A DNA stretch of 64,000 nucleotides from Myxococcota bacterium (GCA_022710975.1 JAKLGA010000009.1:181547-245546), one strand, 5' to 3'; positions 11,470-62,055 are shown, counted from the first letter of the stretch. Made by a program: numbers and translations. The notes: a model not told the origin generated them from the sequence alone.

Positions 11470-12476
<1,007 letters not shown>

Positions 12477-12477
<1 letters not shown>

Positions 12478-13377: not shown

Positions 13378-13388
<11 letters not shown>
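12477..13388 (+). CDS. FHA domain-GGDEF diguanylate cyclase, with the active site GGEEF and the RxxD I-site intact
   Basis: Its ATG shares 1 nt with the recA TGA (TGATG). N-terminal FHA-like region (VLAIARGEHILGRGPGASLRLEDPAISRRHARL...STNGLWWNG). GGDEF domain with RASD-LAAR-V-GGEEF. Confidence 0.85.
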
Positions 13389-17648: not shown

Positions 17649-17783
17649 CGTGGACCTCCTGGAAAGCCGACTCATCCCTGGCTACAAGTTAGAACAAAAA
17701 CCGCGCTGGGTCAATGTGGTAGCGTGTGCGGGCCCGGGGCCGGGCCGGACGGCGGTCAGGGCGGAGCGGGGGGGCGGACCGGG

Positions 17784-42700: not shown

Positions 42701-42706
42701 TGCCAT
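39701..42706 (-). pseudogene. Cysteine-rich repeat lipoprotein, paralog of 42829..47589. It is interrupted by an in-frame amber codon at 41261-41263 and is otherwise a continuous frame of about 1000 codons.
   Basis: The same frame (coordinates congruent mod 3) runs on both sides of the TAG. ...CACEPG*GDCDASPGCETALGS aligns to the paralog's ...GCQPGFGDCTLDPGCETTLGS, with the TAG at the F position. There are no ATG/GTG/TTG codons between the TAG and 40558, which is why the ORF table splits the gene. GAGGAG RBS before the second ATG (MALRVMLAVACLSLVLGPAGC signal). Confidence 0.6.
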
Positions 42707-42828
42707 CGCTCCGCTCCTCGTCTGCATGACGACGGGGTCATTCTAGCCCAGATCGGCGGAATCCGCGATGCGAGGGCAGGAGCCAGGCCCGGAGCCAGGC
42801 CCGGCGGCGGTCCCGGGCGAACCGCGCC

Positions 42829-45800
42829 TCAGTAGTAGCAGGTGATGTAGCCGCTGCAGCCCGGGTAGTAGTACTCGTCGTAGCAGCAGTAGTAGTAGTT
42901 CGTGTCGCACTCGCAGATCTGGTCGTAGTCGCAGTCCTCGAGGCCGGCCGGGCACTGGCACACCCCGCCCACGCAGATCTGGTTGTAGGAGCACAGCGGG
43001 CTGCCGGTGCAGTTGCCCCCGGAGCAGTAGTCGCCGGTGGTGCAAGGGTCGCCGTCGTCGCACGGACCGGGCTTGGCGGGGTAGGCGCAGCCGGTGGCCG
43101 GGTAGCAGTCGTCGTAGGTGCAGATGTTCCCGTCGTTGCAGGGCGGCGTCACGTTGGGGTCGAACTGCGGGTGGCAGCAGGCCTCGCCCTGGGCGCCATT
43201 GCAGTAGTCGTTGGCCCCGGTGCAGGCGTCGCCGTCGGAACAGGGGTTGGTGTTGGGCACGTAGCTGCAGCCCGAGCCGCCGTTGCAGTAGTCGGTGGAG
43301 CACACGTTGGCGTCGTTGCAGTTCTGGATGAGCGCGCTCGACGAGCAGGCGCCCGACGTGCAGGTCTGGCGGCGCCACTCCAGGCCGCTGCAGTAGCGCG
43401 AGCCGCACTCGGTGCCGTTGGCGACGTTCGCGTTCGTGCAGCCGCTGGCGGCCGCGCAGGAGTCGTTGGTGCACTGCTGGCTGTCGTTACAGTTCTGGAT
43501 GAGCGCGCTCGACGAGCAGGCGCCCGACGTGCAGGTCTGGCGGCGCCACTCCAGGGCGTTGCAGTAGCGCGAGCCGCACTCGGTGCCGTTGGCGACGTTC
43601 GCGTTCGTGCAGCCGCTGGCGGCCGCGCAGGAGTCGCTGGTGCACTCGATGCCGTCGTTGCAGTTCTGCAGCCCCATGTCGCCGGAGCAGGTGCCGCTCT
43701 GGCAGGTGTGGGCGTACCACGCCAGGCCGATGCAGTAGCGCGCGCCGCACTCGGTACCGTTGGCGACGTTCGCGTTCGTGCAGCCGCTGGCGGCCGCGCA
43801 GGAGTCGTTGGTGCACTGCTGGCCGTCGTTGCAGTTCTGCACCAGGGCGTTGCCGCTGCAGGCGCCGCTCACGCAGGACTGCATGCGCCACTCCAGGCCG
43901 TTGCAGTAGCGCGAGCCGCACTCGGTGCCGTTGGAGGCGTTGGGGTTGGAGCAGCCGCTGGCGGCGGCGCACGAGTCGGTGGTGCACTGGTTGGCGTCGT
44001 TGCAGTTCTGCTGCAGCGCGCTCGACGAGCAGGCGCCGGACAGGCAGGTCTGGCGGCGCCACTCGAGGCCGTTGCAGAAGCGCGCGCCGCACTCGATGCC
44101 GTTGGCCACCGCGACGTTGGAACAGCCGCTGGCCGCGTTGCAGGTGTCGCTGGTGCACTCCTGGCCGTCGTTGCAGTTCTGCTGCAGCGCGGAGCCCGAG
44201 CAGGAGCCGGACTGGCAGGTCTGGCGGCGCCACTCGAGCGAGCTGCAGAAACGCGCGCCGCACTCGATGCCGTTGGCCACCGCGACGTTGGAGCAGCCGC
44301 TGGCCGCGTTGCAGGTGTCGCTGGTGCACTCCTGGCCGTCGTTGCAGTTCTGCTGCAGCGCGGAGCCCGAGCAGGAGCCGGACTGGCAGGTGTGGCGGCG
44401 CCACTCGAGGGAGCTGCAGTAGCGCGCGCCGCACTCGATGCCGTTGGCCACCGCGACGTTGGTGCAGCCGCTGGCGGCGTTGCAGGAGTCGCTGGTGCAG
44501 TCCTCGATGTCGTTGCAGTTCTGTTGGAGCGCGTTGCCCGTGCAGGCGCCGGACTGGCAGGTCTGCCGGCGCCACTCCAGGCCGTTGCAGTAACGCGCGC
44601 CGCACTCGGTGCCGTTGGCGACCGCCGAGTTGGTGCAGCCGCTGGCGGCCGCGCAGGCGTCGCTGGTGCACGCCTGGCCGTCGTTGCAGTCCTGGGCGAC
44701 GGCGGTGCCCGAGCAGGTGCCCGACTGGCAGGTCTGCATGCGCCACTCCAGGCCGTTGCAGGAGCGCGAGCCGCACTCGGTGCCGTTGGGGAAGCTCGGG
44801 TGGCTGCAGCCCGTGGCGGCCGAGCAGGCGTCGTTGGTGCACTGGTTGGCGTCCGCGCAGTTCTCGAGCAGGCTGTTGCCGGTGCACTGACCCGCCTGGC
44901 AGGTCGGCACCCGCCACTCGAGCGCGTTGCATACCCGCGCGCCGCACTCGGTGCCGTTGGCCAGGTTCACGTGCTGGCAGCCCAGGGCCTGATCGCAGGA
45001 GTCCGTGGTGCAAGGGTTGCCGTCGTCGCAGTCGAGCGCTGTGCCCGAGGTGCAGTTGGGCGGGTTGCAGCCCTCGACGCCGTTGCAGGCGTTGCCGTCG
45101 TCGCACTGCTCGGGCAGGGTGCAGCTCTGGCAGGTCGAGTCCGCGCCGTCGGTGGTGCCGTCGCAGTCGTTGTCCAGGCCGTCCGAGCAGACCTGCGCGC
45201 CGAGCGGGCCCTCTGGCATGCCGGGGTTCACGTTCGGGTTGTCGTCCAGGCAGTCGCCGCCGCAGGGCGGCGGCTGGTGGTCGTCGCCGTCGGCGTCGAT
45301 GAGGGTGCCCGCGCAGGCGCCGCCCGCGCAGGTGTCCCCCGCGGTGCAGGCGTCGCCGTCGTTGCAGGGGGCGGTGTTGTTGGCGTGGGTGCAGCCGCTG
45401 GCCGAATTGCAGCCGTCCGTGGTGCAGGGGTTGCCGTCGTCGCAGTTCCTGGGCGCGCCGCTGCAGGCGGCGCCGGAGCACGCGTCGTTGATGGTGCACT
45501 CGTCGGCGTCGTCGCAGGCGTCGGCGTTCGGGTTGTAGGTGCAGCCCGTGGCCGGGTCGCAGCCGTCGTCGGTGCAGTCGTTGCCGTCCGTGCAGGTCCG
45601 GGGCGCCCCGGCCTGGCACGCGCCGCCGGAGCAGGCGTCGCCCTGGGTGCACTCGTTGCTGTCGCTGCACGGACCCGTGTTGTTCGCGTGGGTGCACTCG
45701 CCGGTGCCCGGCTCGCAGCCGTCGTCGGTGCACGGGTTGCCGTCGTCGCAGCTCGAGCCGCCGGTGAACACGCACACGCCGCCCTGGCAGTGGTCGCCCG

Positions 45801-47589
45801 TGGTGCAGCCGTCGTTGTCGCTGCAGGCGGCCGCGTCGTCGTTCACGTGCTGGCACTGGCCGCTGGCCGGGTTGCAGTCGTCCTGGGTGCAGGCGTTGAG
45901 ATCGTTGCAGTCCTTGGGAACTCCCTGGCAGGTGCCGCCCGAGCACGTGTCGCTGTCGGTGCAGGCGCTGGCGTCGTCGCAGGCCCCGGTGTTGGGGGCG
46001 TGCTGGCAGCCCAGCTGCGCGTCGCAGCTGTCGTCGGTGCAGGGGTTGTTGTCCTCGCAGCTCTCCTGGCAATCGCGGCAGAAGGTCAGGCTGCCGAGCG
46101 TGGTCTCGCAGCCCGGGTCGAGGGTGCAGTCGCCGAAGCCGGGCTGGCACCCGCAGATCTGGCCAGCGCAGCTCCCGTTCGGGCCGCACAGGTTGTCGCA
46201 GCCGCCGCAGTTCTGGCTGTCCTGGGTCAGGTCAACGCAGACCGCGCCGCAGCAGAAGCTGGAGGTGTCGCCGGCGCAGTCCGGGCCGGTGCCGCCGCAG
46301 CGGCACTCCGTCCCCACGCACTGCTCGTTGGGAGAGCACTGGATCCCGTTGCACATCGCGCCGATGCACTGCCCGTCGGTGCAACCCTCGGGGCAGTCCT
46401 CGACCACCTCGGCGTACTGGCAGCTCCCGTCCACGCACGTCCCCGGGGAGCGGAAGCTCACGCGCTGGTCGCCCCGGCACTCGGGCTGCGGCGGCTGGTT
46501 GCAGGCCAGCGGCGTCCCCCGGCACTCATCCTGGGCGCACACGTCTCCCTGGGTGCAGCCGTCGCTGTCGGTGCAGTCCTCCCCCTCGGTCGCCCACACG
46601 GTCTGCTGCGTGGCCGGGTCGTACTGGCAGCGGAAGTTCCCCCAGCCGCAGGCGCTCGTGCTGCACTGCAACCCCGGGGTGCAGGTCTCAGGTGGGCAGC
46701 AGGCGCCGGCCTCGCATCGCTGCCAGGTGGCGCAGTCCACCCCCACGCACAGGCGCAGCTCGCAGGCTCCGCCGGCGCAGACCTCGCCCGACGGGCAGGG
46801 GGTGTCTCCGCAGGTGAGCGGGTAGCAGGCACCAGCCGCGCACGCCTCGTCGGCGCCGCAGGTCACGTGGGCGCACGAGCGGGGGACACACGTCCCCTCG
46901 AAGCAGATCTCCAGCCCGTCCAGGCAGTCCTGGCCGGACTCGGTACAGTCCGCCGGGAAGCACCAGCCGTTGGCGCACTGCAGGTCGCCGCAGTCGACGT
47001 TGGCGCAGGTGCGCTCGGAGCACACGCCGTCGACGCACACCTCGTTGTAGCCGTGGCAGTTCTCCAGGCCGCACTCGGTCGGGTAGCAGCGCCCGCCGGA
47101 GCAGGTCTGCCCGGCGGGGCAGGTCACCCCGGCGCAGGAGCGTTCCTGGCACTCGTCCTCGATGCACACCTCGCCGTAGCCGGCGCACACCTTGGTGGGG
47201 CAGTCCTTGGGGTAGCATCGGCCCGCGGCGCAGACCTGGCCGGCCGGGCACTGGACCGCGATGCAGGAGGCCGGGGTGCACTCCTCCTCCACGCACACCT
47301 CGCCCAGGCCGGGGCAGTTGCGCCAGTTGCAGGCCGAGGGGTAGCAGACCCCATTGGCGCAGCCCTCTCCCGGGGGACACTCCACCCACAGGCAGGCCAC
47401 TTCCTGGCAGATCCCGCCCAGGCAGACCGAGCCTGGCGGGCAGGTCCGATCCTCGCACGTCGTGGGCAGGCACTGCCCGTTGACCACCACGCCGTCAGGG
47501 CACTGGGACGAGATGGTGCCGGGATCGCAGCTGCCCAGCCCGAGGCACGGCGCGAGGAACATGAGGTAGCGAAGGCGGGACTGGCTCAT
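42829..47589 (-). CDS. Giant cysteine-rich repeat lipoprotein (1586 aa): a Cys-rich N-terminal domain, TIGR02232-type DGNxCT repeats, about ten 56-aa tandem repeats, and a Tyr-rich C-terminus
   Basis: GAGGAG RBS before the ATG. Signal MFLAPCLGLGSC. Repeat unit NGTECGSRYCNGLEWRRQTCQSGACSGNALQQNCNDGQQCTNDSCAAASGCTNANVA. C-terminus CECDTNYYYCCYDEYYYPGCSGYITCYY. Confidence 0.8.
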   Translation of the reverse strand: MSQSRLRYLMFLAPCLGLGSCDPGTISSQCPDGVVVNGQCLPTTCEDRTCPPGSVCLGGICQEVACLWVECPPGEGCANGVCYPSACNWRNCPGLGEVCVEEECTPASCIAVQCPAGQVCAAGRCYPKDCPTKVCAGYGEVCIEDECQERSCAGVTCPAGQTCSGGRCYPTECGLENCHGYNEVCVDGVCSERTCANVDCGDLQCANGWCFPADCTESGQDCLDGLEICFEGTCVPRSCAHVTCGADEACAAGACYPLTCGDTPCPSGEVCAGGACELRLCVGVDCATWQRCEAGACCPPETCTPGLQCSTSACGWGNFRCQYDPATQQTVWATEGEDCTDSDGCTQGDVCAQDECRGTPLACNQPPQPECRGDQRVSFRSPGTCVDGSCQYAEVVEDCPEGCTDGQCIGAMCNGIQCSPNEQCVGTECRCGGTGPDCAGDTSSFCCGAVCVDLTQDSQNCGGCDNLCGPNGSCAGQICGCQPGFGDCTLDPGCETTLGSLTFCRDCQESCEDNNPCTDDSCDAQLGCQHAPNTGACDDASACTDSDTCSGGTCQGVPKDCNDLNACTQDDCNPASGQCQHVNDDAAACSDNDGCTTGDHCQGGVCVFTGGSSCDDGNPCTDDGCEPGTGECTHANNTGPCSDSNECTQGDACSGGACQAGAPRTCTDGNDCTDDGCDPATGCTYNPNADACDDADECTINDACSGAACSGAPRNCDDGNPCTTDGCNSASGCTHANNTAPCNDGDACTAGDTCAGGACAGTLIDADGDDHQPPPCGGDCLDDNPNVNPGMPEGPLGAQVCSDGLDNDCDGTTDGADSTCQSCTLPEQCDDGNACNGVEGCNPPNCTSGTALDCDDGNPCTTDSCDQALGCQHVNLANGTECGARVCNALEWRVPTCQAGQCTGNSLLENCADANQCTNDACSAATGCSHPSFPNGTECGSRSCNGLEWRMQTCQSGTCSGTAVAQDCNDGQACTSDACAAASGCTNSAVANGTECGARYCNGLEWRRQTCQSGACTGNALQQNCNDIEDCTSDSCNAASGCTNVAVANGIECGARYCSSLEWRRHTCQSGSCSGSALQQNCNDGQECTSDTCNAASGCSNVAVANGIECGARFCSSLEWRRQTCQSGSCSGSALQQNCNDGQECTSDTCNAASGCSNVAVANGIECGARFCNGLEWRRQTCLSGACSSSALQQNCNDANQCTTDSCAAASGCSNPNASNGTECGSRYCNGLEWRMQSCVSGACSGNALVQNCNDGQQCTNDSCAAASGCTNANVANGTECGARYCIGLAWYAHTCQSGTCSGDMGLQNCNDGIECTSDSCAAASGCTNANVANGTECGSRYCNALEWRRQTCTSGACSSSALIQNCNDSQQCTNDSCAAASGCTNANVANGTECGSRYCSGLEWRRQTCTSGACSSSALIQNCNDANVCSTDYCNGGSGCSYVPNTNPCSDGDACTGANDYCNGAQGEACCHPQFDPNVTPPCNDGNICTYDDCYPATGCAYPAKPGPCDDGDPCTTGDYCSGGNCTGSPLCSYNQICVGGVCQCPAGLEDCDYDQICECDTNYYYCCYDEYYYPGCSGYITCYY
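43250..44950. repeat. Tandem array of about ten 168-bp near-identical repeats inside the CDS 42829..47589
   Basis: Blocks such as GCACTCGGTGCCGTTGGCGACGTTCGCGTTCGTGCAGCCGCTGGCGGCCGCGCAGGAGTCGTTGGTGCACTGCTGGC recur with few substitutions. Each encodes a 56-aa Cys-rich module. Confidence 0.8.
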
Positions 47590-47757
47590 GTCCGGTCTCC
47601 TCTCGGCATACCGATCTGCTGGGGAGATTCTAACCTGTTTACGAGCATTTGAACAGCGCGGCCGGGCAGCTCGGCCGGGGAGCGCGCGCGCCGCCTTCGC
47701 CCTTGAACCAGCCTGGGGCTCGGGCTATCCTCAGAGGCCGATTCCCTGGAGGTCTGC

Positions 47758-52038: not shown

Positions 52039-55000
52039 TCAGCGCGCCCTGCGCCGGAGCACCAGCGCCAGGGCCAGCCCCAGGCCGAGCAGGCCGGCCT
52101 CCAGGGGCGAGCTCGAGGCTCCGCACACGCAGCCGCCGCCGCTCACGTGTGTCAGGTCCGGATCGCTGGCGCCGCCGTCGCCCCCGTCCTGTCCGGGCTG
52201 GCACACCCCGGCCTGGCATGTCCCGTCCGGACAGGCCGTCCCCTCCGGGAGCGCTGCGTGCCGGCAGGCGCCGTCGGCCGCTTCGCAGCCGTCCTCGGTG
52301 CACGGGTTGCCGTCGTCGCAGGCGAGCGGGGTCCCGGCGCACACGCCGGCCAGGCAGGCGTCGGCCGAGGTGCAGCCGTCGCCGTCGTCGCAGGGGGTGG
52401 CGTCGGGCCGGTCCACCAGGGAGCAGGCGCCCGTCGCCGGGTCGCAGGCCGCCTGGCGGCAGTCCGTGTCGGCGGTGGGATCGCACACCACCACGGTCGC
52501 GGGATCCACCACGCAGGCGGGGCTCTGGCAGACCAGGGTGCCGTTGCACAGGTCCGCGTCCTCGAAGGGCGCGCAGTCCGCGTCCGCGCTGCACTGGCAG
52601 GTGTTGGCTCCGGGCTGGCAGGCGCCGGCCGCGCAGGTGTCGCCCCCGGTGCAGGGGTTGCCGTCGTCGCAGGGGGCGCTGTTCGGGGAGAAGGCGCAGC
52701 CCGCGGCGGGCTCGCAGCCGTCGTCGGTGCAGGGGTTGGCGTCGTCGCAGACGAGCGGGGCACCCACCTGGCAGCCGAGGAGCGGATCGCAGCTCTCCAC
52801 GCCGTTGCAGGTGTCGCCATCGTCGCAGGCGAGCGGGGTGCCGGTGCACACGCCGGCCAGGCAGGCGTCGGCCGAGGTGCAGCCGTCGCCGTCGTCGCAG
52901 GGGGTGGCGTCGGGCCGGTCCACCAGGGAGCAGGCGCCCGTCGCCGGGTCGCAGGCCGCCTGGCGGCAGTCCGTGTCGGCGGTGGGATCGCACACCACCA
53001 CGGTCGCGGGATCCACCACGCAGGCGGGGCTCTGGCAGACCAGGGTGCCGTTGCACAGGTCCGCGTCCTCGAAGGGCGCGCAGTCCGCGTCCGCGCTGCA
53101 CTGGCAGGTGTTGGCTCCGGGCTGGCAGGCGCCGGCCGCGCAGGTGTCGCCCCCGGTGCAGGGGTTGCCGTCGTCGCAGGGGGCGCTGTTCGGGGAGAAG
53201 GCGCAGCCCGCGGCGGGCTCGCAGCCGTCGTCGGTGCAGGGGTTGGCGTCGTCGCAGACGAGCGGGGTGCCCACCTGGCAGCCGAGGAGCGGGTCGCAGC
53301 TCTCGGCGCCGGTGCAGGCGTCGCCGTCGTCGCAGGCGAGCGGGGTGCCGGCCACGCAGCCCGAGGCCGGATCGCAGCCCTCGAGGCCGTCGCAGACGTC
53401 GCCGTCGTCGCAGATGAGCGGGGTGCCCGGGACGCAGCCCGAGGCCGGGTCGCAGCCCTCGAGGCCGTCGCAGGCGTCGCCGTCGTCGCAGACGAGCGGG
53501 GTGCCCGGCTGGCAGGCGCCGCCGGCGCACGCCTCGTCGCCGTTGCACGTGTCGCCGTCCGGGCAGGGGAGCGTGTTGGGCTCGAAGGCGCAGCCCGTGG
53601 CCGGGACGCAGGAGTCCGTGGTGCAGACGTTGCCGTCGTCGCAGGAGAGCGGCGTGCCGGCCTGGCAGCTCCCGGCGGCGCAGGTCTCGTCGCCGTTGCA
53701 GGCGTTGCCGTCGTCGCAGTCCAGGTCCTGCGCGCACACCGAGCACGAGGGCTGCTCCGCGTCCACGTTCCCGTCGCAGTCGTTGTCCAGGCCGTCGCTG
53801 CAGGTCGGATCGCCCAGGCCGCCCTCGAACATCCCGGGGTTGACGCTGACGTTGCCGTCGTCGCAGTCCACGCCGCCGCAGGCGAAGGGCGCGTAGCCGT
53901 CGTCGTCCGCGTCCAGCGGCGCGCCCTGGCAGGCGCCGAGCGCGCAGGTGTCGCCCTCGGAGCAGGGGTCGCCGTCGTCGCATGGATCGGCGTTGCCGGT
54001 GTAAGCGCAGCCCGTGGCCGGGGCGCACGAGTCCGTGGTGCAGGCGTTGCCGTCGTCGCAGGCGAGCGGCGTGCCCGGCTGGCAGCTCCCGCCGGCGCAG
54101 ACCTCGGCGCCGTTGCAGAGGTCGCCGTCCGCGCAGGAGAGGGTGTTGTCCACTAGCACGCAGCCCGTGAACGGGTCGCACGAGTCCGTGGTGCAGAGGT
54201 TGCCGTCGTCGCAGGCGAGCGGTGTGCCGGCCTGGCAGGTGCCGGCGGAGCAGGCCTCGTCCCCGTTGCAGAGATCGCCGTCCGCGCAGGAGAGGGTGTT
54301 GGGGGCATAGCTGCAGCCCGTGGCCGGGGCGCAGGAGTCCGTGGTGCAGGAGTTGCCGTCGTCGCAGACGAGCGGGGTGCCGGCCTGGCAGGTGCCGGCC
54401 GCGCAGGCCTCGCTGCCGTTGCACTGATCGCCGTCCGAGCAGGAGACCGTGTTGGGGACATTGCTGCAGCCCGTGGCCGGGGCGCAGGAGTCCGAGGTGC
54501 AGACGTTGCCGTCATTGCAGCTCAGCGGTGTGCCGGCCTGGCAGGTGCCGGCGGAGCAGGCCTCGTCCCCGTTGCAGAGATCGCCGTCCGCGCAGGAGAG
54601 GGTGTTGGGGGCATAGCTGCAGCCCGTGGCCGGGGCGCAGGAGTCCGTGGTGCAGGAGTTGCCGTCGTCGCAGACCAGCGGGGCGCCGGCCTGGCACGAG
54701 CCCGCGGAGCAGGCCTCGTTGCCGTTGCAGAGGTCGCCGTCCGAGCAGGGCAGCGCGTTGTTGGCGAAGGCGCAGCCTGTGGCCGGGACGCAGGAGTCGG
54801 TGGTGCAGACGTTGCCGTCGTTGCAGGTGAGCGGCGTGCCGGCCTGGCAGGTGCCGCCGGAGCAGACCTCGGCGCCATCGCAGAGGTCGCCGTCCGCGCA
54901 GGAGGCCGTGTTGGGGACGAAGCTGCAGCCCGTGGCCGGGACGCAGGAGTCCGAGGTGCAGACGTTGCCGTCGTTGCAGGTCAGGGGGGTGCCGGCCTGG

Positions 55001-58000
55001 CAGGCGCCGCCGGCGCAGACCTCGCTGCCGTTGCACAAGTTGCCATCCGCGCAGGAGGCCGTGTTGGGGACGAAGCTGCAGCCCGTGGCCGGGACGCAGG
55101 AGTCGGTGGTGCAGACGTTGCCGTCGCTGCAGGTCAGGGGGGTGCCGGCCTGGCAGGCGCCGCCGGCGCAGACCTCGCTGCCGTTGCACAAGTTGCCGTC
55201 CGCGCACGAGGCCGTGTTGGGGACGAAGCTGCAGCCCGTGGCCGGGACGCAGGAGTCCGTGGTGCAGACGTTGCCGTCGTTGCAGACGAGCGGGGTGCCA
55301 GACTGGCAGGTGCCGCCGGAGCAGACCTCGTCGCCGTCGCAGAGGTCGGCGTCCGCGCAGGAGGCCGTGTTGGGGACGAAGCTGCAGCCCGTGGCCGGGA
55401 CGCAGGAGTCCGTGGTGCAGACGTTGCCGTCGTTGCAGGTGAGCGGCGTGCCGACCTGGCAGGTGCCGCCGGAGCAGACCTCGGCGCCATCGCAGAGGTC
55501 GCCGTCCGCGCAGGAGGCCGTGTTGGGGGCAAAGCTGCAGCCCGTGGCCGGGACGCAGGAGTCGGTGGTGCAGACGTTCCCATCGTTGCAGGTCAGGGGA
55601 GTGCCGGCCTGGCACGCGCCCGCGGCGCAGACCTCGCTGCCGTTGCACAGGTTGCCGTCGGGGCAGGGCAGGGTGTTGTTGGCGTAGGCGCAGCCCGTGG
55701 CCGGGTTGCAGGAGTCGGTGGTGCAGAGGTTGCCGTCGTCGCAGGTGAGCGGGGTGCCGGCCTCGCACGAGCCGGCGGCGCAGATCTCGTCGCCGTTGCA
55801 GGCGTTGCCGTCCGAGCAGTCGCCGTTGCCCGAGCAGACCGAGCACGACGGCTGCTCCAGGTCGGTGTTGCCGTCGCAGTCGTTGTCCAGCCCGTCGGCG
55901 CACGTGGGATCGCCCAGCCCACCCTCGAAGGCGCCGGGGTTGACGGCGGGGTCGGTGTCGTCGCAGTCCGTGCCGAGGCAGGCCAGCGGCACGTAGGTGT
56001 CGCCGTCCGCGTCCAGCGGGTCGCCCTGGCAGGTGCCGGCCGCGCAGGCGTCGGCCATGGTGCAATCGTCGGCGTCGTCGCAGGGGCCGGTGTTGGCGGG
56101 GTAGGCGCAGCCCGTGGCCGGGACGCAGGAGTCCATGGTGCAGACGTTGCCGTCGTTGCAGACGAGCGGGGTGCCGGCCTGGCACGAGCCGCCGGAGCAT
56201 GCCTCAGCGCCGTCGCAGAGGTCGCCGTCCGGGCAGGGCAGGGTGTTGTTGGCGTAGCTGCAGCCCGTGGCCGGGACGCAGGAGTCCGTGGTGCAGACGT
56301 TGCCGTCGTTGCAGACGAGCGGGGTGCCGGCCTGGCACGAGCCCGCGGAGCAGGCCTCGTTCCCGTTGCACAGGTCGCCGTCCGGGCAGGGCAGGGTGTT
56401 GTTCGCGTTGCTGCAGCCCGTGGCCGGGACGCAGGAGTCCGTGGTGCAGAGGTTGCCGTCGTTGCAGACGAGCGGGGTGCCGGCCTGGCAGGAGCCCGCG
56501 GCGCAGACCTCGTTCCCGTTGCACAGGTTCCCGTCTGGGCAGGGGACGGTGTTGTTGACGTTGCTGCAGCCCGTGGCCGGGACGCAGGAGTCCGTGGTGC
56601 AGAGGTTGCCGTCGTTGCAGGTGAGCGGCGTGCCGGCCTGGCACGAGCCCGCGGAGCAGGCCTCGTTGCCGTTGCAGAGGTCGCCGTCCGGGCAGGGCAG
56701 CGCGTTGTTGGCGTAGGCGCAGCCCGTGGCCGGGACGCAGGAGTCCGTGGTGCAGAGGTTGCCGTCGTTGCAGGTGAGCGGCGTGCCGGCCTGGCAGGAG
56801 CCCGCGGAGCAGACCTCGTTCCCGTTGCACAGGTTCCCGTCTGGGCAGGGGACGGTGTTGTTGACGTTGCTGCAGCCCGTGGCCGGGACGCAGGAGTCCG
56901 TGGTGCAGACGTTCCCGTCGTTGCAGACGAGCGGGGTGCCGGCCTGGCAGGAGCCCGCGGAGCAGACCTCGTTGCCGTTGCAGAGGTTGCCGTCCGGGCA
57001 GGGCAGGGTGTTGTTCGCGGTGCTGCAGCCCGTGGCCGGGACGCAGGAGTCCGTGGTGCAGAGGTTGCCGTCGTCGCAGACCAGCGGGGTGCCGGCCTGG
57101 CAGGAGCCCGCGGCGCAGACCTCGTTCCCGTTGCACAGGTTGCCGTCTGGGCAGGGGACGGTGTTGTTGACGTTGCTGCAGCCCGTGGCCGGGACGCAGG
57201 AGTCCGTGGTGCAGACGTTGCCGTCGTTGCAGACGAGCGGGGTGCCGGCCTGGCAGGAGCCCGCGGAGCAGACCTCGTTCCCGTTGCAGAGGTTGCCGTC
57301 CGGGCAGGGCAGGGTGTTGTTCGCGGTGCTGCAGCCCGTGGCCGGGACGCAGGAGTCCGTGGTGCAGAGGTTGCCGTCGTTGCAGACCAGCGGGGTGCCG
57401 GCCTGGCAGGAGCCCGCGGAGCAGACCTCGTTCCCGTTGCACAGGTTGCCGTCCGGGCAGGGCAGGGTGTTGTTCGCGGTGCTGCAGCCCGTGGCCGGGA
57501 CGCAGGAGTCCGTGGTGCAGAGGTTGCCGTCGTCGCAGACCAGCGGGGTGCCGGCCTGGCAGGAGCCCGCGGCGCAGACCTCGTTCCCGTTGCACAGGTT
57601 GCCGTCTGGGCAGGGGACGGTGTTGTTGACGTTGCTGCAGCCCGTGGCCGGGACGCAGGAGTCCGTGGTGCAGACGTTGCCGTCGTTGCAGACGAGCGGG
57701 GTGCCGGCCTGGCAGGAGCCCGCGGAGCAGACCTCGTTCCCGTTGCAGAGGTTGCCGTCCGGGCAGGGCAGGGTGTTGTTCGCGGTGCTGCAGCCCGTGG
57801 CCGGGACGCAGGAGTCCGTGGTGCAGACGTTCCCGTCGTTGCAGACCAGCGGGGTGCCGGCCTGGCAGGAGCCCGCGGCGCAGACCTCGTTCCCGTTGCA
57901 CAGGTTCCCGTCCGGGCAGGGCAGGGTGTTGGTGACGTTGCTGCAGCCCGTGGCCGGGACGCAGGAGTCCGTGGTGCAGAGGTTGCCGTCGTCGCAGACC

Positions 58001-60759
58001 AGCGGGGTGCCGGGCAGGCAGCTGCCTGTGGCGACCACGCAGGTCTCCGCACCGTTGCAGGCGTCCCCGTCGTCGCAGTCCGGATCGCCGGTACAGGTGG
58101 CCGGCTCCTTGATCCAGATCTGGAGGTTGTCCAGCCGGCAGCCGGCCTGGTTGACGGTGTAGTCGGTGTACGAGCGGAAGCGGAAGTAGACGGTGTCGTA
58201 GCCGATCAGCGGGGTGAGGTTCACCTCCTGCGCGCCGCTGGCGGTGCCGGTGAAGCCGGTGATGATCCGCCACTGGACGTTGTCCAGGCTGTACTCCCAG
58301 ATCAACCAGTCATAGTTCTGCTCGTAGGCGCAGGACACCAGGTCGAAGCTGATCGAGGCGGACACCGCGTCGCTCAGATCGACCCCGGCCGAGAAGGTGG
58401 CCGAGGAGCGGTTGTTGTCTCGGTAGTTGGCCCCCGGGCTGTCGTCCAGCACCCCGCCCTGCACGGCCCAGGTGGGGGTCAGGGTCCAGTTGGTCGCGTT
58501 GCCGAAGGTCTCGTCGACGACCAGCGTGTCGGGCGCGTCGCCGGCCGCGGTGACGAGGATGTCGTCGAGGTACCACCCGTCCCGGCGGGTGCTGGCGTTC
58601 GACGACAGCCAGAAACGGAGCTGGACCCGCTGGCCGGTCGCGAGGATCGTGCCGGCCCACTCGTGCCAGGTGGTGTTGGTGCCGGTGACCTGATCCACGC
58701 TGGTCCAGGCCGACCAGGTGGCGCCGTCGTAGGTGCGGATCTGGATCCTGCCGTAGTCCGCGTTGGCCTGCAGATCGTAGCGCTGCCAGAAACTGAGCCG
58801 GATCAGCTGATCGTTCGCCACGATCTCGGGCGAGACCAGGTAGAGGTTGGCGTTGTTCGGATAGTTGCCCCCGGGGCTGTCCGTCCAGCTGTGGGTCGGG
58901 CTGTGGCTCTGAGCGGTGACCTGGCCCCAGTCTCCGGTCCAGCCGTTGAGCCCCCCCTCGACGTCGTCGTCGAGCAGGACGGTCTCGGCGGGTGTGGTGA
59001 TGACCACCACGTTCGACAGGGCGCTCCGGTTGCCGGCGTTGTCCACCACCTCGAGGCCGAAGCGGTAGGTCGTCCCCGGCGAGAGGCCGCCGATGGTGAA
59101 GTTGTCCACCTGCCCGACCGGGGACGGGGTCCACAGCCCGAGGATCGGCTCGGCCGTGGCGTAGTCGAAGGTGGCGCCCTCGGCCACCCGCAGGTCGTAG
59201 TAGTTGGCCTGCCCCGCGTTGCCGTCGTCGCCCGTGGCGGTCGTGCGCAGGAGCACCCGCCGGCTCTGGGTGAGGTGCACGCCGAGGGTGGGCGTGGCCG
59301 GGGCGGTCGCGTCTTCCTCGACCAGGTTGAAGACGTTGAGGTGCCCACCGGTGACCGACAGGCCGGCCAGCGAGGCCCAGCGCTGGCTGCGATCCATGAG
59401 CCGCTGGCGGATGGCGCTCACCCGCTGGACCTGGGTCATGCCCGCCCAGCCGGTGATCAGGTTCGGCGCCAGGCCGTACACGATGGCCGCCGCGCCCGAG
59501 GCGTGGGGCGCGGCCATCGAGGTCCCGCTCCACGACAGCCAGACGCTGTTGGCGGTGTCCCACATGCAGATCTGGTAGAGGCTCTCGGGGTAGCCGGTCA
59601 GGATGTTCGGGGTGGTGGAGACGATCTCCTCGCCCGGGGCGTAGAGGTGGACCGTGTTCAGGCCGTAGTTGGAGAACAGCGAGCCGTCGCCCCAGGCGCT
59701 GGAGGCGCCGACCGAGATGACGTTCTCGTAGGGGTAGTTGCCCGGGTAGGAGGGCGTGGTGTCGTTGTCGGTGCCGTCGTTGCCCGACGCGACCACGAAG
59801 ACCACACCCTGGTCACGCGCCGCGGCGATCGCCGCGGCCAGGCTCGCGTCGTAGGCGCCGCCACCCCAGCTGTTGTTGAGCACCTTGGCGCCGTTGGTGA
59901 CGCCGTAGTTGATCGCCGCGATGGCGTTGGCGGTGCTGCCGCCGGTCGGCCCGATGAACCGCAGCGCCATGATCTGGACGTTGGTCGTGGTGCCGTAGAC
60001 GCCGATCGAGTTGTGGATCGCGGCGATGGCCCCGGCCACGTGGGTGCCGTGGCTGTCCTCGTCCATCGGGTTCGTGTCGTTCGAGTAGAAGTCGTAGCCG
60101 AGGCCCGGCCACATCACCGCGGCCAGGTCCGGGTGGGTGTAGTCCACGCCGGAGTCGATGACCCCGACGATGATCGTGCTCGGGGTGAAGCCGCGCCGGG
60201 CGATCTCGTCGTTGGCCTCCGGGGTGTCCATGTCCATGTCGGCCACGCGCGGATCCGGGTTGTACAGGCCGGCGTTCCCCTGGAAGGGCGCGTTGCCGCC
60301 CAGGTTCCGGTGGGCCCAGGCCATGTTGAAGTAGGGATCGCTGGGGACCTCGCTGGGGAAGTAGAGGTAGTTGGGCTGGGCGGCCTCCACCCCGGGTTGC
60401 TTGGTCAGCTCCGCGATGGCCTGCTCGACGTCCACGCCGCTGGTCAGGCGCAGCAGGTAGGTGCGGTTGAGCGTGGATTCCGGCGCGGACTCGAACCGCA
60501 GACGTCGCTCGACGCGGTGGCCCAGCGCCCCGGCCATGGCCTGCGCGGCACCCTCCTCCTGCCCTGCTCGCAGGGTGACCAGGACCTCGTCCACCACCCA
60601 GGCCGCCTTCGTTCCGGCGCGCCGCGGCGAGGGCTTCTGGACGGCCAGCTCCTCCGTGGAGACGCCGGGGCCCGGCTCCCCCGCGCCGTCGCACGACGGG
60701 CCGACCAGGGCGAGCAGGACGAGGGCCGCGGACGGGATCGCGATGGCTTTCGAGGGCAT
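52039..60759 (-). CDS. Giant (2906 aa) secreted subtilisin-like S8 peptidase, then an FN3-like domain, two jelly-roll-like domains, about 50 tandem 36-aa cysteine-rich repeats, and a MYXO-CTERM tail
   Basis: GGAGG RBS 6 nt before the ATG at 60759. Signal [18 protein letters not shown]8 catalytic blocks [13 protein letters not shown] (Asp), DSHGTHVAG (His), NNSWGG (oxyanion Asn) and [11 protein letters not shown] (Ser). Repeats are of the [51 protein letters not shown] type. C-terminus [33 protein letters not shown]. Confidence 0.85.
52150..58040. repeat. Tandem array of about 50 repeats of 108 bp (36 aa) inside the S8 giant gene; many adjacent copies are identical at the nucleotide level
   Basis: The unit ...GGTGCAGACGTTGCCGTCGTTGCAGACGAGCGGGGTGCCGGCCTGGCAGGAGCCCGCGGAGCAGACCTCGTTCCCGTTGCAGAGGTTGCCGTCCGGGCAGGGCAGGGTGTTGTTCGCGGTGCTGCAGCCCGTGGCCGGGACGCAGGAGTCCGT recurs almost exactly between about 56.2 and 58.0 kb. 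More diverged copies run down to about 52.2 kb. Confidence 0.85.
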
Positions 60760-60879
60760 GCAGAACCTCCGGCGCTCGAGGCATTCCACCCGACGACCCC
60801 CTGAGGCTAACCCATGGCGATCTTTGTCACCAGGGGGAAGGGTGTGCAGCGGTATCGGGCTGTGGTAGGTCTGGTGTCC

Positions 60880-62055
60880 ATGGACGCGCCGCGCCTGAAT
60901 GCGTACCAGAGGGACGCCCACCTGACCTCGCTGCGCGCCCGCGCGGTCGCCTGCGCGCCCGCGCAGGGCGGCTTCCTGGTCGAGCTCGAGGACACGCTCT
61001 TCTACCCCGAGGGCGGGGGTCAGCCCGCCGACGCCGGCACCCTCGACGGGCAGGCGCTGCTCGGCCTGCAGAAGACGGCCGACGGGCGGGTGCTGCACCT
61101 CCTGGCCGAGGCCGTCGAGGTCGGGCGGGAGGTGGCGCTGGAGCTCGACTGGGCGCGGCGCCTCGATCACATGCAGCAGCACTCCGCCCAGCACATCCTG
61201 ACCGCGCTGGCGCTGGCCGAGTTCGGCTGGCCCACCACGGCCTTCCACCTGGGGCCGGACCGCTCCGACCTCGAGCTGGGTCAGGACGGGCTCGACCTGG
61301 CGGCGCTGGCCGGCCTCCAGGCGCGGGCGAACGAGATCGTCCGCCAGGCCCGCCCGGTGCGCACCCGCTGGGTGAGCGCGGAGGAGTTCCAGACCCTGCC
61401 GGTGCGCTCCCGCATCCTGCCCGAGGGATTCGCCGGCCCCTACCGGCTGGTGGAGATCGAGGGCGTGGATCTCAACACCTGCGGCGGGACCCACGTGGCC
61501 TCCACCGCCGAGCTGCAGGCCGTCGCCCTCACGGGCACCGAGCGGCTGAGGGGGGGCACGCGGGTGTTCTTCCTGGCCGGTGGGCGGGTGCTGCGCGAGC
61601 TCGGCCAGGCGGTCGCGCACCAGCGCGCGCTCGGGGAGCTGCTGTCCTGCCCGCCGGCGGATCACCCGGCGGCCGTCTCGCGCCTGCAGGCCGAGCTCCG
61701 CGAGGCGGGCGTCCAGCGCCGCCAGCTCCAGTCCGAGCTGGCCCTGCACCTGGCGCGGGAGCTGTCCCGCGGCCCGCAGCCGGCCAGCCTGCACCGGCCC
61801 GAGGCCGACATGGCCTGCCTGCAGGCCGTGGCCCGGGCCTTCCTGGAGCTGTGTCCGCAGGGGCTCGCCCTGCTGACGGGCAAGGGCCTGTTCGTGCTGG
61901 CCGGCCCGGCGGACAGGCTGAAGGCCCTCGGTCCCCAGGTGGCCGCGGCGCTCGGCGGCCGGGGCGGGGGCGGGGCGGGGCTCTACCAGGGCAAGGCCGC
62001 GGAGCTCTCCCCGGCCGCCCGCGAGCGCGCGCTGGCGACGCTCAGGTCGAGCTGA
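60880..62055 (+). CDS. AlaX-L type alanyl-tRNA editing protein (tRNA_SAD domain)
   Basis: FYPEGGGQPADAG at the N-terminus, then HSAQHIL and CGGTHV zinc-binding motifs. Start is chosen at MDAPRLNAYQRD by family alignment. The ORF table begins at 60814 with no RBS, so the start is uncertain. Confidence 0.7.
   Translation: MDAPRLNAYQRDAHLTSLRARAVACAPAQGGFLVELEDTLFYPEGGGQPADAGTLDGQALLGLQKTADGRVLHLLAEAVEVGREVALELDWARRLDHMQQHSAQHILTALALAEFGWPTTAFHLGPDRSDLELGQDGLDLAALAGLQARANEIVRQARPVRTRWVSAEEFQTLPVRSRILPEGFAGPYRLVEIEGVDLNTCGGTHVASTAELQAVALTGTERLRGGTRVFFLAGGRVLRELGQAVAHQRALGELLSCPPADHPAAVSRLQAELREAGVQRRQLQSELALHLARELSRGPQPASLHRPEADMACLQAVARAFLELCPQGLALLTGKGLFVLAGPADRLKALGPQVAAALGGRGGGGAGLYQGKAAELSPAARERALATLRSS

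What the first reader, a model, noticed from the sequence alone, without database searches (positions are those of the whole stretch)
52039..60759. 2906-aa subtilisin fused to about 50 identical cysteine-rich repeats and a MYXO-CTERM sorting tail
A complete S8 catalytic domain with propeptide is followed by an FN3-like domain, two jelly-roll domains, and 5.9 kb of 108-bp tandem repeats. Many neighbouring repeats are identical at DNA level, including synonymous sites, which implies very recent expansion or concerted evolution. Most repeat units keep an N-N-T or N-x-T tripeptide ([20 protein letters not shown]). Giant repeat-bearing proteases are plausible matrix or prey-degrading or surface-layer components in predatory myxobacteria. 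The MYXO-CTERM signal implies processing by a myxosortase and surface attachment.
Basis: partly seen in the sequence, partly recalled or inferred. Interest (0 to 1): 0.65.

Follow-up and report, generated by a model that had tools for sequence, protein, structure and literature searches.

The report
Giant stalked surface protease, repeat count unresolved
An uncultured wastewater myxobacterium encodes a real, intact subtilisin-type protease carried on a very long cysteine-rich stalk with a membrane-anchoring tail, but the number and apparent identity of its repeats change from one short-read assembly to the next, so they cannot yet be trusted.

Summary
The ORF is real: 52039-60759 (-), 2,906 aa. 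It has a signal peptide, a fervidolysin-type propeptide and an intact S8 domain (D202/H237/N327/S414). An FN3-like domain and two MAM/CBM-like beta-sandwiches follow. Then comes a 1,979-aa stalk (15% Cys, very acidic) of Dicty_CTDC modules, ending in a GCxC-TM-RRR tail.

The repeat description is wrong in detail. The period is 153 bp (51 aa, two 25/26-aa half-modules), not 108 bp. There are 26 full units in two blocks separated by MopE-type metal-binding motifs. Only one pair of units is DNA-identical, and those two are not adjacent.

The only long exact repeats (385 bp and 422 bp) lie exactly where independent short-read assemblies of the same strain disagree. The gene comes out as 2,906, 2,753 or 1,476 aa, or the contig breaks inside the array. 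All 26 differences from another 2,906-aa assembly are paired across repeat copies, which points to assembly-graph collapse. Recent expansion or concerted evolution is therefore unproven.

The tail scores below the MYXO-CTERM cut-off (15.2 vs 20 bits), although the syntenic orthologue passes.

Best reading: a lipid-anchored surface subtilase on a rigid stalk, built like TraA and working like a cell-envelope proteinase. It is a new member of a known kind, of modest interest.

The parts
52039..60759 (-). Complete CDS, 2,906 aa plus stop codon (giant S8 peptidase)
   Evidence: ORF and translation. The same start is used in NCBI HRY96542.1 and in the JGI gene calls. GGAGG lies 8-12 nt upstream of the ATG.
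60691..60759 (-). N-terminal signal peptide, aa 1-23 ([23 protein letters not shown]); Cys23 is a possible lipobox cysteine
   Evidence: By inspection of the sequence only. No signal-peptide predictor was available. The lipobox is not canonical (GPS-C).
60370..60621 (-). Propeptide, Fervidolysin_NPro-like (aa 47-130)
   Evidence: Pfam PF22148, E = 3.6e-8, 34.1 bits against a cut-off of 21.
59392..60177 (-). Peptidase S8 catalytic domain (aa 195-456); D202, H237, oxyanion N327, S414
   Evidence: Pfam PF00082, 155.3 bits. Aligned to subtilisin BPN' and to deseasin MCP-01 (3vv3, E = 8e-44) with the catalytic residues matched. Residue numbers checked.
58984..59304 (-). FN3-like beta-sandwich (aa ~486-592)
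   Evidence: AlphaFold2 model with pLDDT 89. Foldseek finds FN3 hits. Pfam fn3 is sub-threshold at 17.8 bits. Homologues carry PF00041.
58525..58983 (-). Jelly-roll / MAM-like beta-sandwich 1 (aa ~593-745)
   Evidence: Model. Foldseek matches CBM22, reelin, and the MAM regions of enteropeptidase and meprin. InhA-like_MAM scores 22.6 bits against 26.9.
58102..58524 (-). Jelly-roll / MAM-like beta-sandwich 2 (aa ~746-886)
   Evidence: Model. The tandem-CBM22 Foldseek match covers both sandwiches. The alignment consensus shows the same [11 protein letters not shown]...DG.Y.DDI pattern twice.
52165..58101 (-). Cys-rich stalk as a whole (aa 887-2865): 300 Cys in 1,979 aa, 271 D+E against 5 K+R, 66 CxDx[DN]xC half-modules
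   Evidence: Pfam Dicty_CTDC, E = 2.3e-72 over 29 stretches. Composition and motif count. A four-unit AlphaFold2 model has pLDDT 96.7 and consists of paired beta-hairpins.
56023..58011 (-). Repeat block 1: 13 units of 153 bp / 51 aa (aa 917-1579); the last unit is degenerate
   Evidence: TRF gives period 153, 12.5 copies, 92% matches, score 3207. Unit table and mismatch matrix.
57443..57827 (-). 385-bp exact direct repeat, copy 1 (CDS nt 2933-3317). It flanks the 459-bp segment that is missing from the 2,753-aa assembly.
56984..57368 (-). 385-bp exact direct repeat, copy 2 (CDS nt 3392-3776)
   Evidence: Three paired substitutions relative to assembly L016 fall in both copies.
55870..56013 (-). 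MopE-type putative metal-binding motif 1 (aa 1583-1630), spacer between the two blocks
   Evidence: Pfam PF11617, 30.3 bits against a cut-off of 27. Regex match.
53923..55758 (-). Repeat block 2: 12 units of 153 bp / 51 aa (aa 1668-2279); more diverged than block 1
   Evidence: TRF gives period 153, 11.9 copies, 86% matches, score 2330..
53770..53913 (-). MopE-type motif 2 (aa 2283-2330)
   Evidence: Regex match and sequence similarity to motif 1.
53272..53658 (-). One further 51-aa unit followed by three 26-aa half-units (aa 2368-2496)
52846..53267 (-). 422-bp exact direct repeat, copy 1 (CDS nt 7493-7914), part of a 507-bp / 169-aa duplication
   Evidence: Ten substitutions relative to L014 and L016 recur at the same offsets in copy 2.
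52339..52760 (-). 422-bp exact direct repeat, copy 2 (CDS nt 8000-8421)
   Evidence: Contigs L017 and L019-L021 end inside or at this duplication.
52042..52140 (-). C-terminal MYXO-CTERM-like tail (aa 2874-2906): GGGCVCG - [20 protein letters not shown] - RRRAR
   Evidence: TIGR03901 aligns over model positions 1-34, but the score is only 14.7-15.2 bits against a cut-off of 20. The tail of orthologue P0001 scores 21.1 bits.

Best explanation
The gene encodes a secreted, catalytically competent subtilase (S8) made as a pre-pro-enzyme. Its 860-aa 'head' (propeptide, S8 domain, FN3-like domain, two MAM/CBM-like beta-sandwiches) is a module found on its own in many phyla.

In this Myxococcota lineage the head is fused to a roughly 2,000-aa stalk. 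The stalk is disulfide-rich (about 150 potential disulfides), extremely acidic, and probably rigidified by Ca2+ or another metal. It is built from Dicty_CTDC half-modules arranged as 51-aa units, with two MopE-type metal-binding motifs interrupting it. The protein ends in a MYXO-CTERM-type tail.

Inferred pathway, by analogy with TraA and MXAN_4924:
1. Sec export.
2. Temporary inner-membrane anchoring by the C-terminal helix.
3. Lipidation of the GCxC cysteine.
4. Removal of the helix by a myxosortase.
5. Type II secretion to the cell surface.

The end state would be an active protease held far from the outer membrane on a rod, where it degrades extracellular protein (nutrient, matrix or prey). 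Functionally it is a Gram-negative counterpart of the cell-envelope proteinases. Architecturally it is TraA with a protease in place of the PA14 lectin.

The unit number in the window (26) is the longest assembled version, not an established value.

Shown here: the domains, the catalytic residues, the folds, the repeat anatomy, the orthology and synteny, and the instability between assemblies. Inferred: the lipidation and secretion route, the rigid-spacer role, metal binding, and the substrates.
For: DOMAINS AND CATALYTIC RESIDUES
- S8 domain, propeptide and the full D/H/N/S set are present.
- The middle region is three confident beta-sandwiches matching CBM22, MAM, reelin and FN3.
- The head alone recurs as proteins of about 1,000 aa in Bradymonadales, Armatimonadota, Bacteroidota and other phyla.

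STALK
- Dicty_CTDC scores E = 2e-72.
- A four-unit model has pLDDT 96.7 and is a regular series of hairpin pairs.
- The stalk is 15% Cys and has 271 acidic against 5 basic residues.
- The MopE motif passes its cut-off.
- pN/pS among units is 0.3-0.6, so the units are under purifying selection.

TAIL
- The tail has an invariant-type Cys pair, a helix and RRRAR, and its best sorting-signal matches are the MYXO-CTERM models.
- The syntenic orthologue P0001 (74% identical head, same neighbours) passes TIGR03901 at 21.1 bits and is named a MYXO-CTERM protein by JGI.
- Another protein in the window (4350-6833) passes TIGR03382 at 20.5 bits.
- The organism is labelled Myxococcota by NCBI.

LITERATURE
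- The MYXO-CTERM pathway and the 'rigid stalk' idea for TraA come from PMC11980579 and PMC3325183.
Against: - The tail itself is below both curated MYXO-CTERM cut-offs. It carries a Pro and a Glu just before a rather short hydrophobic stretch.
- No myxosortase or type II secretion gene was seen in the window ORFs that were scanned. The rest of the genome could not be searched.
- Nothing tests activity, localisation, metal binding or rigidity.
- Stalk length is uncertain by a factor of up to about 3, because assemblies give 1,476-2,906 aa.
Confidence: 0.6

Rival explanations
1. The enzyme is secreted or shed rather than tethered. On this view the protein is mainly released, and the Cys-rich acidic region is a binding or adhesive module for matrix, mineral, metal or prey surfaces, not a spacer. 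The C-terminal helix would be only a transient export intermediate.
For: - TraA and MXAN_4924 are partly released extracellularly (PMC11980579).
- The tail scores below the MYXO-CTERM cut-offs.
- Cys-rich repeat proteins are typically associated with extracellular matrix (PMC3325183).
- The window encodes four other Dicty_CTDC or MopE-motif proteins that have no such tail.
Against: - The tripartite tail, including the Cys pair, is conserved in the orthologue, where it passes the cut-off.
- The very regular, confidently predicted hairpin-pair repeat looks like a rod rather than a set of binding pockets.
Confidence: 0.2
2. The array length is largely an assembly artefact. On this view the real gene is much shorter, close to the 1,476-aa version and to the orthologue's 1,568 aa, and the long versions are mis-threaded paths through a repeat graph.
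For: - The same strain (0 SNPs in about 11 kb of unique flank) yields 2,906, 2,753 and 1,476 aa, all in frame.
- Many contigs end inside the array.
- All assemblies found appear to be short-read assemblies. The runs SRR4244739 and SRR5007146 are wastewater metagenome samples (PMC7300365).
Against: - Assemblers do not invent diverged units. The 26 units carry unit-specific substitutions and match nothing else in the window.
- Three assemblies agree on the unit order of block 1: the window, JGI 3300010429 and NCBI HRY96542.1.
- Outside the 385-bp and 422-bp repeats, exact repeats are at most 152 bp.
- The junction in the 1,476-aa contig shares only about 33 nt between units 0 and 23. That looks like a collapse or a deletion rather than the original state.
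Confidence: 0.12
3. The stalk length is genuinely polymorphic and the repeats evolve in concert. Unequal recombination and gene conversion between in-frame units create co-existing alleles (2,906 / 2,753 / 1,476 aa), and they homogenise the long duplicates within each allele.
For: - All length differences are exact multiples of the repeat and stay in frame.
- The variant sites differ between assemblies, yet both copies within any one assembly are identical.
- recA lies in the window.
- The neighbouring Cys-rich gene also differs by exactly one 57-aa unit between assemblies.
Against: - There are zero SNPs anywhere else in 21 kb. That makes independent strains with doubly converted alleles less parsimonious than a collapsed graph node that is used twice.
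- The shorter versions come from particular assemblies and assemblers: both ERZ272574xx MEGAHIT k141 contigs (L015 and L017) carry the short 1,529-aa version of the neighbouring gene, and L015 also carries the 1,476-aa protease gene, whereas L017 ends inside the protease gene.
Confidence: 0.15
4. The stalk is an N-glycosylated surface layer or matrix component, with the N-x-T tripeptides acting as glycosylation sequons.
For: Block 1 units carry N-N-T in a loop.
Against: - The sequon is present in only 12 of 26 units; block 2 has P-N-T-A/L, which is not a sequon.
- The stalk holds 19 sequons against about 23 expected by composition.
- Only 3 D/E-x-N-x-S/T sites occur in the whole protein.
- In an alignment of 38 family members only the Asn is semi-conserved.
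Confidence: 0.03

Closest known systems
TraA / MXAN_4924 of Myxococcus xanthus (MYXO-CTERM surface receptors)
   Same: The overall plan is the same: signal peptide, functional N-terminal head, tandem Cys-rich repeat 'stalk', then a C-terminal MYXO-CTERM-type tag with a Cys pair, a helix and an Arg cluster. The rigid-stalk idea and the myxosortase / type II secretion route were proposed or shown for these proteins (PMC3325183, PMC11980579).
   Different: The head here is an S8 protease with FN3 and MAM-like domains, not a PA14 lectin. The repeats are PF00526 (Dicty_CTDC) in 51-aa units, not TIGR04201, which gave no NCBIfam hit. The stalk is about 2,000 aa, whereas TraA has nine repeat elements (PMC3325183). 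The tail is sub-threshold for TIGR03901.
Cell-envelope proteinases of Gram-positive bacteria (lactocepin PrtP, streptococcal C5a peptidase ScpA)
   Same: These are pre-pro-subtilases followed by Fn3-like beta-sandwich domains, a long spacer and a C-terminal sorting signal that fixes the enzyme to the cell surface (from established knowledge, not tested here). This is the closest functional analogue.
   Different: They are anchored to peptidoglycan by LPXTG and sortase, not by a Cys lipid anchor. Their spacers are helical or wall-spanning regions rather than disulfide-rich modules. No PA-domain insert was detected here. NF040553 (LPXTG-anchored serine peptidase) scores only 15 bits against a cut-off of 1400.
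The widespread S8-FN3-(InhA-like MAM)x2 peptidases of about 1,000 aa (e.g. P0002 from Bradymonadales, P0003-P0030)
   Same: They share the head architecture at 30-44% identity over 90% or more of the 900-aa head. P0002 also begins a Cys-rich region at the same junction.
   Different: They lack the giant stalk. Their C-terminal additions, where present, are PKD, FN3 or other domains. No member has been characterised.
Deseasin MCP-01 (PDB 3vv3) and subtilisin BPN'
   Same: These are the closest solved catalytic domains (E = 8e-44 and 7e-33), with all catalytic residues aligned.
   Different: The window protein has an insertion of about 18 aa before the catalytic Ser (aa ~386-405) and entirely different C-terminal domains.
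VesB of Vibrio cholerae (GlyGly-CTERM / rhombosortase)
   Same: It is a serine protease with a tripartite C-terminal tag. [quoted passage not shown]
   Different: It has a trypsin fold, no stalk, and a different tag and sorting enzyme.
Dictyostelium PF00526 proteins (PsiA, DicA1) and other Dicty_CTDC repeat proteins
   Same: They share the repeat family. Related stalk segments at 40-60% identity are common in uncultured Myxococcota, Planctomycetota and Omnitrophota. No solved structure exists: Foldseek against the PDB gives nothing at E < 1e-3, and PMC8078820 lists the family among those without a known structure.
   Different: Those are eukaryotic signalling or spore-coat proteins, none of which is fused to a protease.

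Membership tests
Peptidase family S8 (subtilases) | Match to the family profile above the curated threshold | tested here: met
   PF00082 scores 155.3 bits against a cut-off of 21.8, over aa 195-456.
Peptidase family S8 (subtilases) | Catalytic triad in the order Asp-His-Ser, plus the oxyanion-hole Asn | tested here: met
   D202, H237, N327 and S414 align to D32, H64, N155 and S221 of BPN'.
Peptidase family S8 (subtilases) | N-terminal propeptide (intramolecular chaperone / inhibitor) | tested here: met
   PF22148 Fervidolysin_NPro-like scores 34.1 bits against a cut-off of 21.
Peptidase family S8 (subtilases) | Proteolytic activity | not testable with these tools
   This needs an enzyme assay.
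MYXO-CTERM sorting domain (TIGR03901 / TIGR03382) | HMM score at or above the curated cut-off | tested here: not met
   TIGR03901 scores 14.7-15.2 bits against 20, and TIGR03382 scores 13.5 against 15.85, on the isolated tail. Neither model was among the matches listed at E <= 0.01 for the full protein. The model's authors state that the 34-aa model is hard to make accurate and that membership needs curatorial review (bioRxiv 10.1101/2023.06.07.544157).
MYXO-CTERM sorting domain (TIGR03901 / TIGR03382) | Tripartite layout at the extreme C-terminus: Cys-containing signature (often GCGC), a transmembrane helix, and an Arg-rich end | tested here: met
   The tail reads GGGCVCG...[17 protein letters not shown] and is the last 33 residues. 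One caveat: P and E lie just upstream of a short helix.
MYXO-CTERM sorting domain (TIGR03901 / TIGR03382) | Host belongs to Myxococcota (or Bradymonadales) and has other proteins with the tag | tested here: met
   An identical SpeA is labelled 'Myxococcota bacterium' by NCBI. The tail of window ORF 4350-6833 scores 20.5 bits against 15.85 for TIGR03382. The tail of the syntenic orthologue P0001 scores 21.1 against 20.
MYXO-CTERM sorting domain (TIGR03901 / TIGR03382) | Cognate myxosortase (MrtX/MrtC/MrtP, CPBP family) in the genome | not testable with these tools
   No CPBP (PF02517) hit appeared among the window ORFs that were scanned.
MYXO-CTERM sorting domain (TIGR03901 / TIGR03382) | N-terminal Sec signal peptide | tested here: inconclusive
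   Typical n- and h-regions are seen by eye. No predictor was run.
Dicty_CTDC repeat (PF00526) | Repeated profile matches above threshold | tested here: met
   The protein scores 238.8 bits over 29 stretches. There are 66 CxDx[DN]xC modules at 25/26-aa spacing.
Cu-binding_MopE putative metal-binding motif (PF11617) | Profile match above threshold | tested here: met
   Spacer 1 scores 30.3 bits against a cut-off of 27. Spacer 2 matches by sequence similarity. Metal binding itself was not tested.
TraA family (PA14 + TIGR04201 repeats + MYXO-CTERM) | PA14 head and TIGR04201 Cys-rich repeats | tested here: not met
   No PA14 or TIGR04201 hit appears in the Pfam or NCBIfam scans. The protein is an architectural analogue only.
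Gram-positive cell-envelope proteinases | LPXTG sortase signal and PA / A / B domains | tested here: not met
   The protein has no LPXTG motif. NF040553 scores 15 bits against a cut-off of 1400. It is a functional analogue only.
N-glycoprotein with conserved sequons | N-x-S/T conserved in the repeat and enriched in the stalk | tested here: not met
   The sequon is present in 12 of 26 units. The stalk has 19 sequons against about 23 expected.

The most novel reading that the evidence does not exclude
The stalk length may be genuinely variable within a near-clonal natural population. RecA-dependent unequal recombination between in-frame 153-bp units (and 459-bp or 507-bp super-units) would generate alleles of 1,476 to 2,906 aa or more. 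Gene conversion would keep the long duplicates identical within each allele. The result would be a surface protease whose reach from the cell, possibly on the order of 100 nm, can be tuned or phase-varied. The same would apply to the neighbouring Cys-rich lipoprotein.
Probability: 0.15. Interest if true: 0.55.

Novelty: new member of a known kind. Interest (0 to 1): 0.3.

Why it matters
If the model is right, this is an extreme example of 'enzyme on a stick' surface display in Myxococcota. A full subtilase head would be carried on about 66 disulfide-bonded modules and lipid-anchored through the recently characterised MYXO-CTERM / myxosortase pathway. That would extend the pathway's known clients from receptors such as TraA to very large hydrolases. 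It would also raise a concrete question: how does the type II secretion system handle a folded, roughly 2,000-aa rigid rod?

The stalk module has no solved structure but is predicted with very high confidence (pLDDT 96.7). It is therefore an attractive structural target and a candidate protein-engineering spacer.

The practical lesson is methodological. The features that looked most exciting from raw sequence were the perfectly identical repeats, which implied recent expansion. These are exactly the features that short-read metagenome assemblies produce artificially. The same strain gives three different in-frame gene lengths.

Tried and rejected
- **Exact-product look-up.** The look-up of the 2,906-aa protein found nothing. 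The explanation came later: the other 2,906-aa assembly (L016) differs at 26 repeat positions.
- **Genome-contig scan with the head.** It returned only two distant S8 genes (28-30% identity) and not the source genome. Taxonomy came instead from an exact look-up of the neighbouring SpeA.
- **Frame errors.** Two calls were wasted on out-of-frame coordinates and were redone. One search failed on a reference that contained stop codons.
- **N-glycosylation sequon idea.** Rejected.
- **Inactive protease or pure adhesin.** Rejected, because all catalytic residues are intact.
- **Membership of the TraA family or of the LPXTG cell-envelope proteinases.** Rejected on defining features.
- **Solved structure for the stalk.** Foldseek against the PDB found nothing significant. 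The best match was the Cys-rich region of the Entamoeba Gal/GalNAc lectin at E = 6.5e-3.
- **Dating the expansion with synonymous divergence.** This was inconclusive. With GC3 of about 0.95, pS between the orthologous heads is only 0.26. That is similar to pS between the two repeat blocks (0.23), while pS within block 1 is 0.10.
- **The idea that the 1,476-aa contig comes from a different strain.** Rejected. All of its apparent mismatches sit at the collapsed junctions, and its unique flanks are identical to the window.
- **Rfam scan of the window.** No RNA family reached its gathering score.
- **Literature search on the sample accessions.** It showed only that two SRA runs are wastewater samples.
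- **Rod length per unit.** This could not be computed, because model coordinates are not returned.


Full report
**1. What is at the coordinates**

The minus strand carries one long ORF ending at 52039. The longest reading (GTG at 61794) overlaps the divergent tRNA_SAD gene at 60814-62055. The first ATG is at 60759. It is preceded by GGAGG and gives 2,906 aa. NCBI (HRY96542.1) and JGI gene calls for the same locus start at the same Met. The window is 71.7% G+C and the frame has GC3 of 0.95.

**2. Domain anatomy**

- Pfam gives Fervidolysin_NPro-like at aa 47-130, Peptidase_S8 at aa 195-456, and Dicty_CTDC (E = 2e-72, 29 stretches).
- D202, H237, N327 and S414 align with the catalytic residues of subtilisin BPN'. 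The closest solved catalytic domain is the collagenolytic deseasin MCP-01, E = 8e-44.
- An AlphaFold2 model of aa 470-900, built on 32 homologues, reaches pLDDT 89 and is all-beta with three sandwiches.
- Foldseek against the PDB matches tandem CBM22, reelin subrepeats, the MAM-containing regions of enteropeptidase and meprin, and FN3 arrays.
- The Pfam hits on the isolated pieces are sub-threshold (fn3 17.8 bits, InhA-like_MAM 22.6 bits), but homologues carry PF00041 and PF20773.

**3. The repeats**

- Tandem Repeats Finder gives a period of 153 bp: 12.5 copies at 92% and 11.9 copies at 86%. It also finds a 459-bp super-period. It does not find a 108-bp period.
- At the protein level there are 26 units of 51 aa (consensus [51 protein letters not shown]). 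Each unit is two 25/26-aa half-modules with 8 Cys.
- The units form a block of 13 and a block of 12, each followed by a MopE-type 'putative metal-binding motif'. The first motif passes PF11617 at 30.3 bits against a cut-off of 27.
- After these come one more unit, three 26-aa half-units and a 169-aa duplication.
- By motif there are 66 CxDx[DN]xC modules. The stalk (aa 887-2865) has 300 Cys, 271 D+E and only 5 K+R.
- A four-unit AlphaFold2 model built on 38 homologues has pLDDT 96.7 and shows a regular series of beta-hairpin pairs. It has no significant match in the PDB.
- Related stalk segments at 40-60% identity are common in uncultured Myxococcota, Planctomycetota and Omnitrophota. The di-module of about 51 aa is the family norm.

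**4. Are the repeats identical?**

Mostly not.

- Only units 2 and 5 are identical in DNA, and they lie 459 bp apart. Units 0-7 differ by 2-13 of 153 nt. Units compared between the two blocks differ by up to about 43 nt.
- pN/pS among units is 0.3-0.6.
- The gene contains just two long exact direct repeats. One is 385 bp at a spacing of 459 bp. The other is 422 bp at a spacing of 507 bp. All other exact repeats are 152 bp or shorter.

**5. Independent assemblies of the same strain disagree exactly there**

Exact-protein look-ups with the flanking genes retrieved the locus from many metagenome assemblies. In unique sequence these are 100% identical to the window. The protease gene, however, differs between them:

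| Assembly | Result |
|---|---|
| Window; JGI 3300010429 (L016) | 2,906 aa |
| JGI 3300025706 (L009 = L014) | 2,753 aa |
| ENA ERZ27257455, MEGAHIT k141 (L015) | 1,476 aa |
| Logan contigs L010, L011 | end at aa 925, the first unit |
| NCBI HRY96542.1 | partial, ends at aa 1,843 |
| L018 | ends 1,070 aa from the C-terminus |
| L017, L019-L021 | end 109-182 aa from the C-terminus, inside or at the 507-bp duplication |

- The 2,753-aa version lacks exactly the 459 bp bracketed by the 385-bp exact repeat.
- The 1,476-aa version joins window-gene nt 2795 to nt 6546 (unit 0 to unit 23) and merges the 507-bp duplication. It stays in frame.
- L016 differs from the window at 26 positions in 20,933 bp. 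All 26 lie inside the two long repeats, and all are paired. Three sites occur at offset 459. Ten sites at nt 7644-7777 recur at nt 8151-8284. The same ten paired differences separate the window from L014.
- Each assembly therefore makes both copies identical, but the assemblies disagree on which variant that is, and they have no SNP anywhere else.
- The most economical explanation is that the true copies differ at these sites and the assemblers traverse one collapsed graph node twice. Real concerted evolution between co-existing alleles is possible but less parsimonious.
- Either way, 'identity including synonymous sites, hence very recent expansion' is not established, and the unit number (26 in the window) is only the longest assembled version.
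- The array as such is real. The units carry their own substitutions, match nothing else in the window, and three assemblies agree on the order of block 1.

**6. Orthologue and evolution**

- The best homologue, P0001 (JGI metagenome, 1,568 aa), is 74% identical over the head. It sits in the same gene neighbourhood: nuo genes, tRNA_SAD, protease, DUF218, a gene of 680-689 aa, DAGK, and a large Cys-rich protein.
- Its stalk is different. It has about eight 33-aa Cys-rich repeats, then a single 51-aa unit, one MopE-type motif and a MYXO-CTERM tail.
- The stalk is therefore the evolutionarily plastic part. P0001 is itself a metagenome assembly, so its length is also not guaranteed.
- The next homologues (44% identity or less) are proteins of about 1,000 aa that consist of the head alone, from many phyla.

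**7. The tail**

- The last 33 residues read [33 protein letters not shown].
- Among all NCBIfam sorting-signal models the best matches are the MYXO-CTERM models and the C-terminus of a myxosortase-dependent phytase. The scores are below the cut-offs: TIGR03901 14.7-15.2 against 20, TIGR03382 13.5 against 15.85.
- The orthologue's tail passes at 21.1 bits. Another protein in the window (4350-6833) passes TIGR03382 at 20.5 bits.
- The organism is labelled Myxococcota by NCBI.
- The model's authors stress that the 34-aa model is imperfect and that membership needs review.
- I therefore treat the tag as probable, not proven.
- The pathway itself is taken from PMC11980579 and PMC3325183. It runs: Sec export, helix anchoring, presumed Cys lipidation, cleavage by MrtX, type II secretion, then surface display with partial shedding.

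**8. N-x-T**

The loop sequon is present in 12 of 26 units. Block 2 has P-N-T-A/L, which is not a sequon. The stalk has 19 sequons against about 23 expected, and only three D/E-x-N-x-S/T sites exist in the whole protein. There is no case for glycosylation.

**9. Mechanism and comparison**

- The best-supported model is a pre-pro-subtilase displayed on a long, disulfide-rich, acidic and probably metal-stiffened stalk, anchored by a C-terminal lipidated Cys.
- It works like the Gram-positive cell-envelope proteinases (own knowledge) and is built like TraA. It fails the defining features of both families: no LPXTG or PA domain, and no PA14 or TIGR04201.
- It is a bona fide S8 peptidase and Dicty_CTDC protein.
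- The scale is unusual. None of the 120 best head homologues exceeds 1,568 aa. But every module and the sorting concept are already known, so I rate it a new member of a known kind.

**10. Context**

- The window encodes four further Cys-rich Dicty_CTDC or MopE-motif proteins, so this repeat is a common building block in this genome.
- Two of the source runs are wastewater metagenomes.
- No RNA family was detected in the window.

Noticed in passing
window 30923-33187 (-): A 754-aa ORF matches the Major Vault Protein shoulder domain (PF11978, E = 1e-30) and a vault repeat domain (PF17795). It is a bacterial MVP homologue, next to an 808-aa ORF (33220-35646, -) with no Pfam hit.
   Followed up: no
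window 42829-47724 (-): A large Cys-rich putative lipoprotein (called as 1,586 aa) with Dicty_CTDC modules, a MopE-type motif and about twelve 57-aa repeats. It ends in an odd Tyr/Cys-rich C-terminus (…CCYDEYYYPGCSGYITCYY). Its length also depends on the assembly: 1,586 aa in the JGI contigs and 1,529 aa in the two ERZ272574xx contigs, a difference of exactly one 57-aa unit.
   Followed up: partly
window 39701-42742 (-): A paralogue of the 1,586-aa protein is interrupted by an in-frame stop (…ACEPG*GDCD…). L016 is identical to the window across this stop, and the upstream part is called as a separate 481-aa gene. The downstream part is called as 255 or 285 aa in two other assemblies. This could be a pseudogene, a split gene or another assembly-unstable repeat gene.
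   Followed up: partly
window 4350-6833 (+): A protein of about 760 aa has no Pfam or NCBIfam family hit. Its C-terminus (…GEPQAGCATGPGSGLALGLLALALLGLRRRA) passes the MYXO-CTERM-type model TIGR03382 at 20.5 bits against 15.85. It follows directly after a 1,095-aa Dicty_CTDC protein at 1235-4522.
   Followed up: partly
window 15216-17681 (-): Another Cys-rich secreted protein (821 aa) has a strong MopE-type metal-binding motif (PF11617, E = 2e-11). Counting the protease, the 64-kb window holds five Cys-rich repeat proteins.
   Followed up: no
L001 10001-14707 (orthologue P0001): The syntenic orthologue has a different stalk. It uses about eight 33-aa repeats (CRASAGxCDxAExCTGSxxxCPxDAFxPSS, faint Disintegrin hit) and only one 51-aa Dicty_CTDC unit. 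Different Cys-rich repeat types have therefore been amplified behind the same protease head in sister lineages.
   Followed up: partly
window 52039-60759, and the window as a whole: With GC3 of about 0.95, synonymous divergence is strongly compressed. pS is only 0.26 between orthologous heads that are 74% identical in protein. Identity at synonymous sites is therefore weak evidence of recency in this genome.
   Followed up: yes
window 12366-13388 (+), next to recA at 11467-12477 (+): An FHA-GGDEF diguanylate cyclase lies immediately downstream of recA. This is ordinary and is noted only for context.
   Followed up: no
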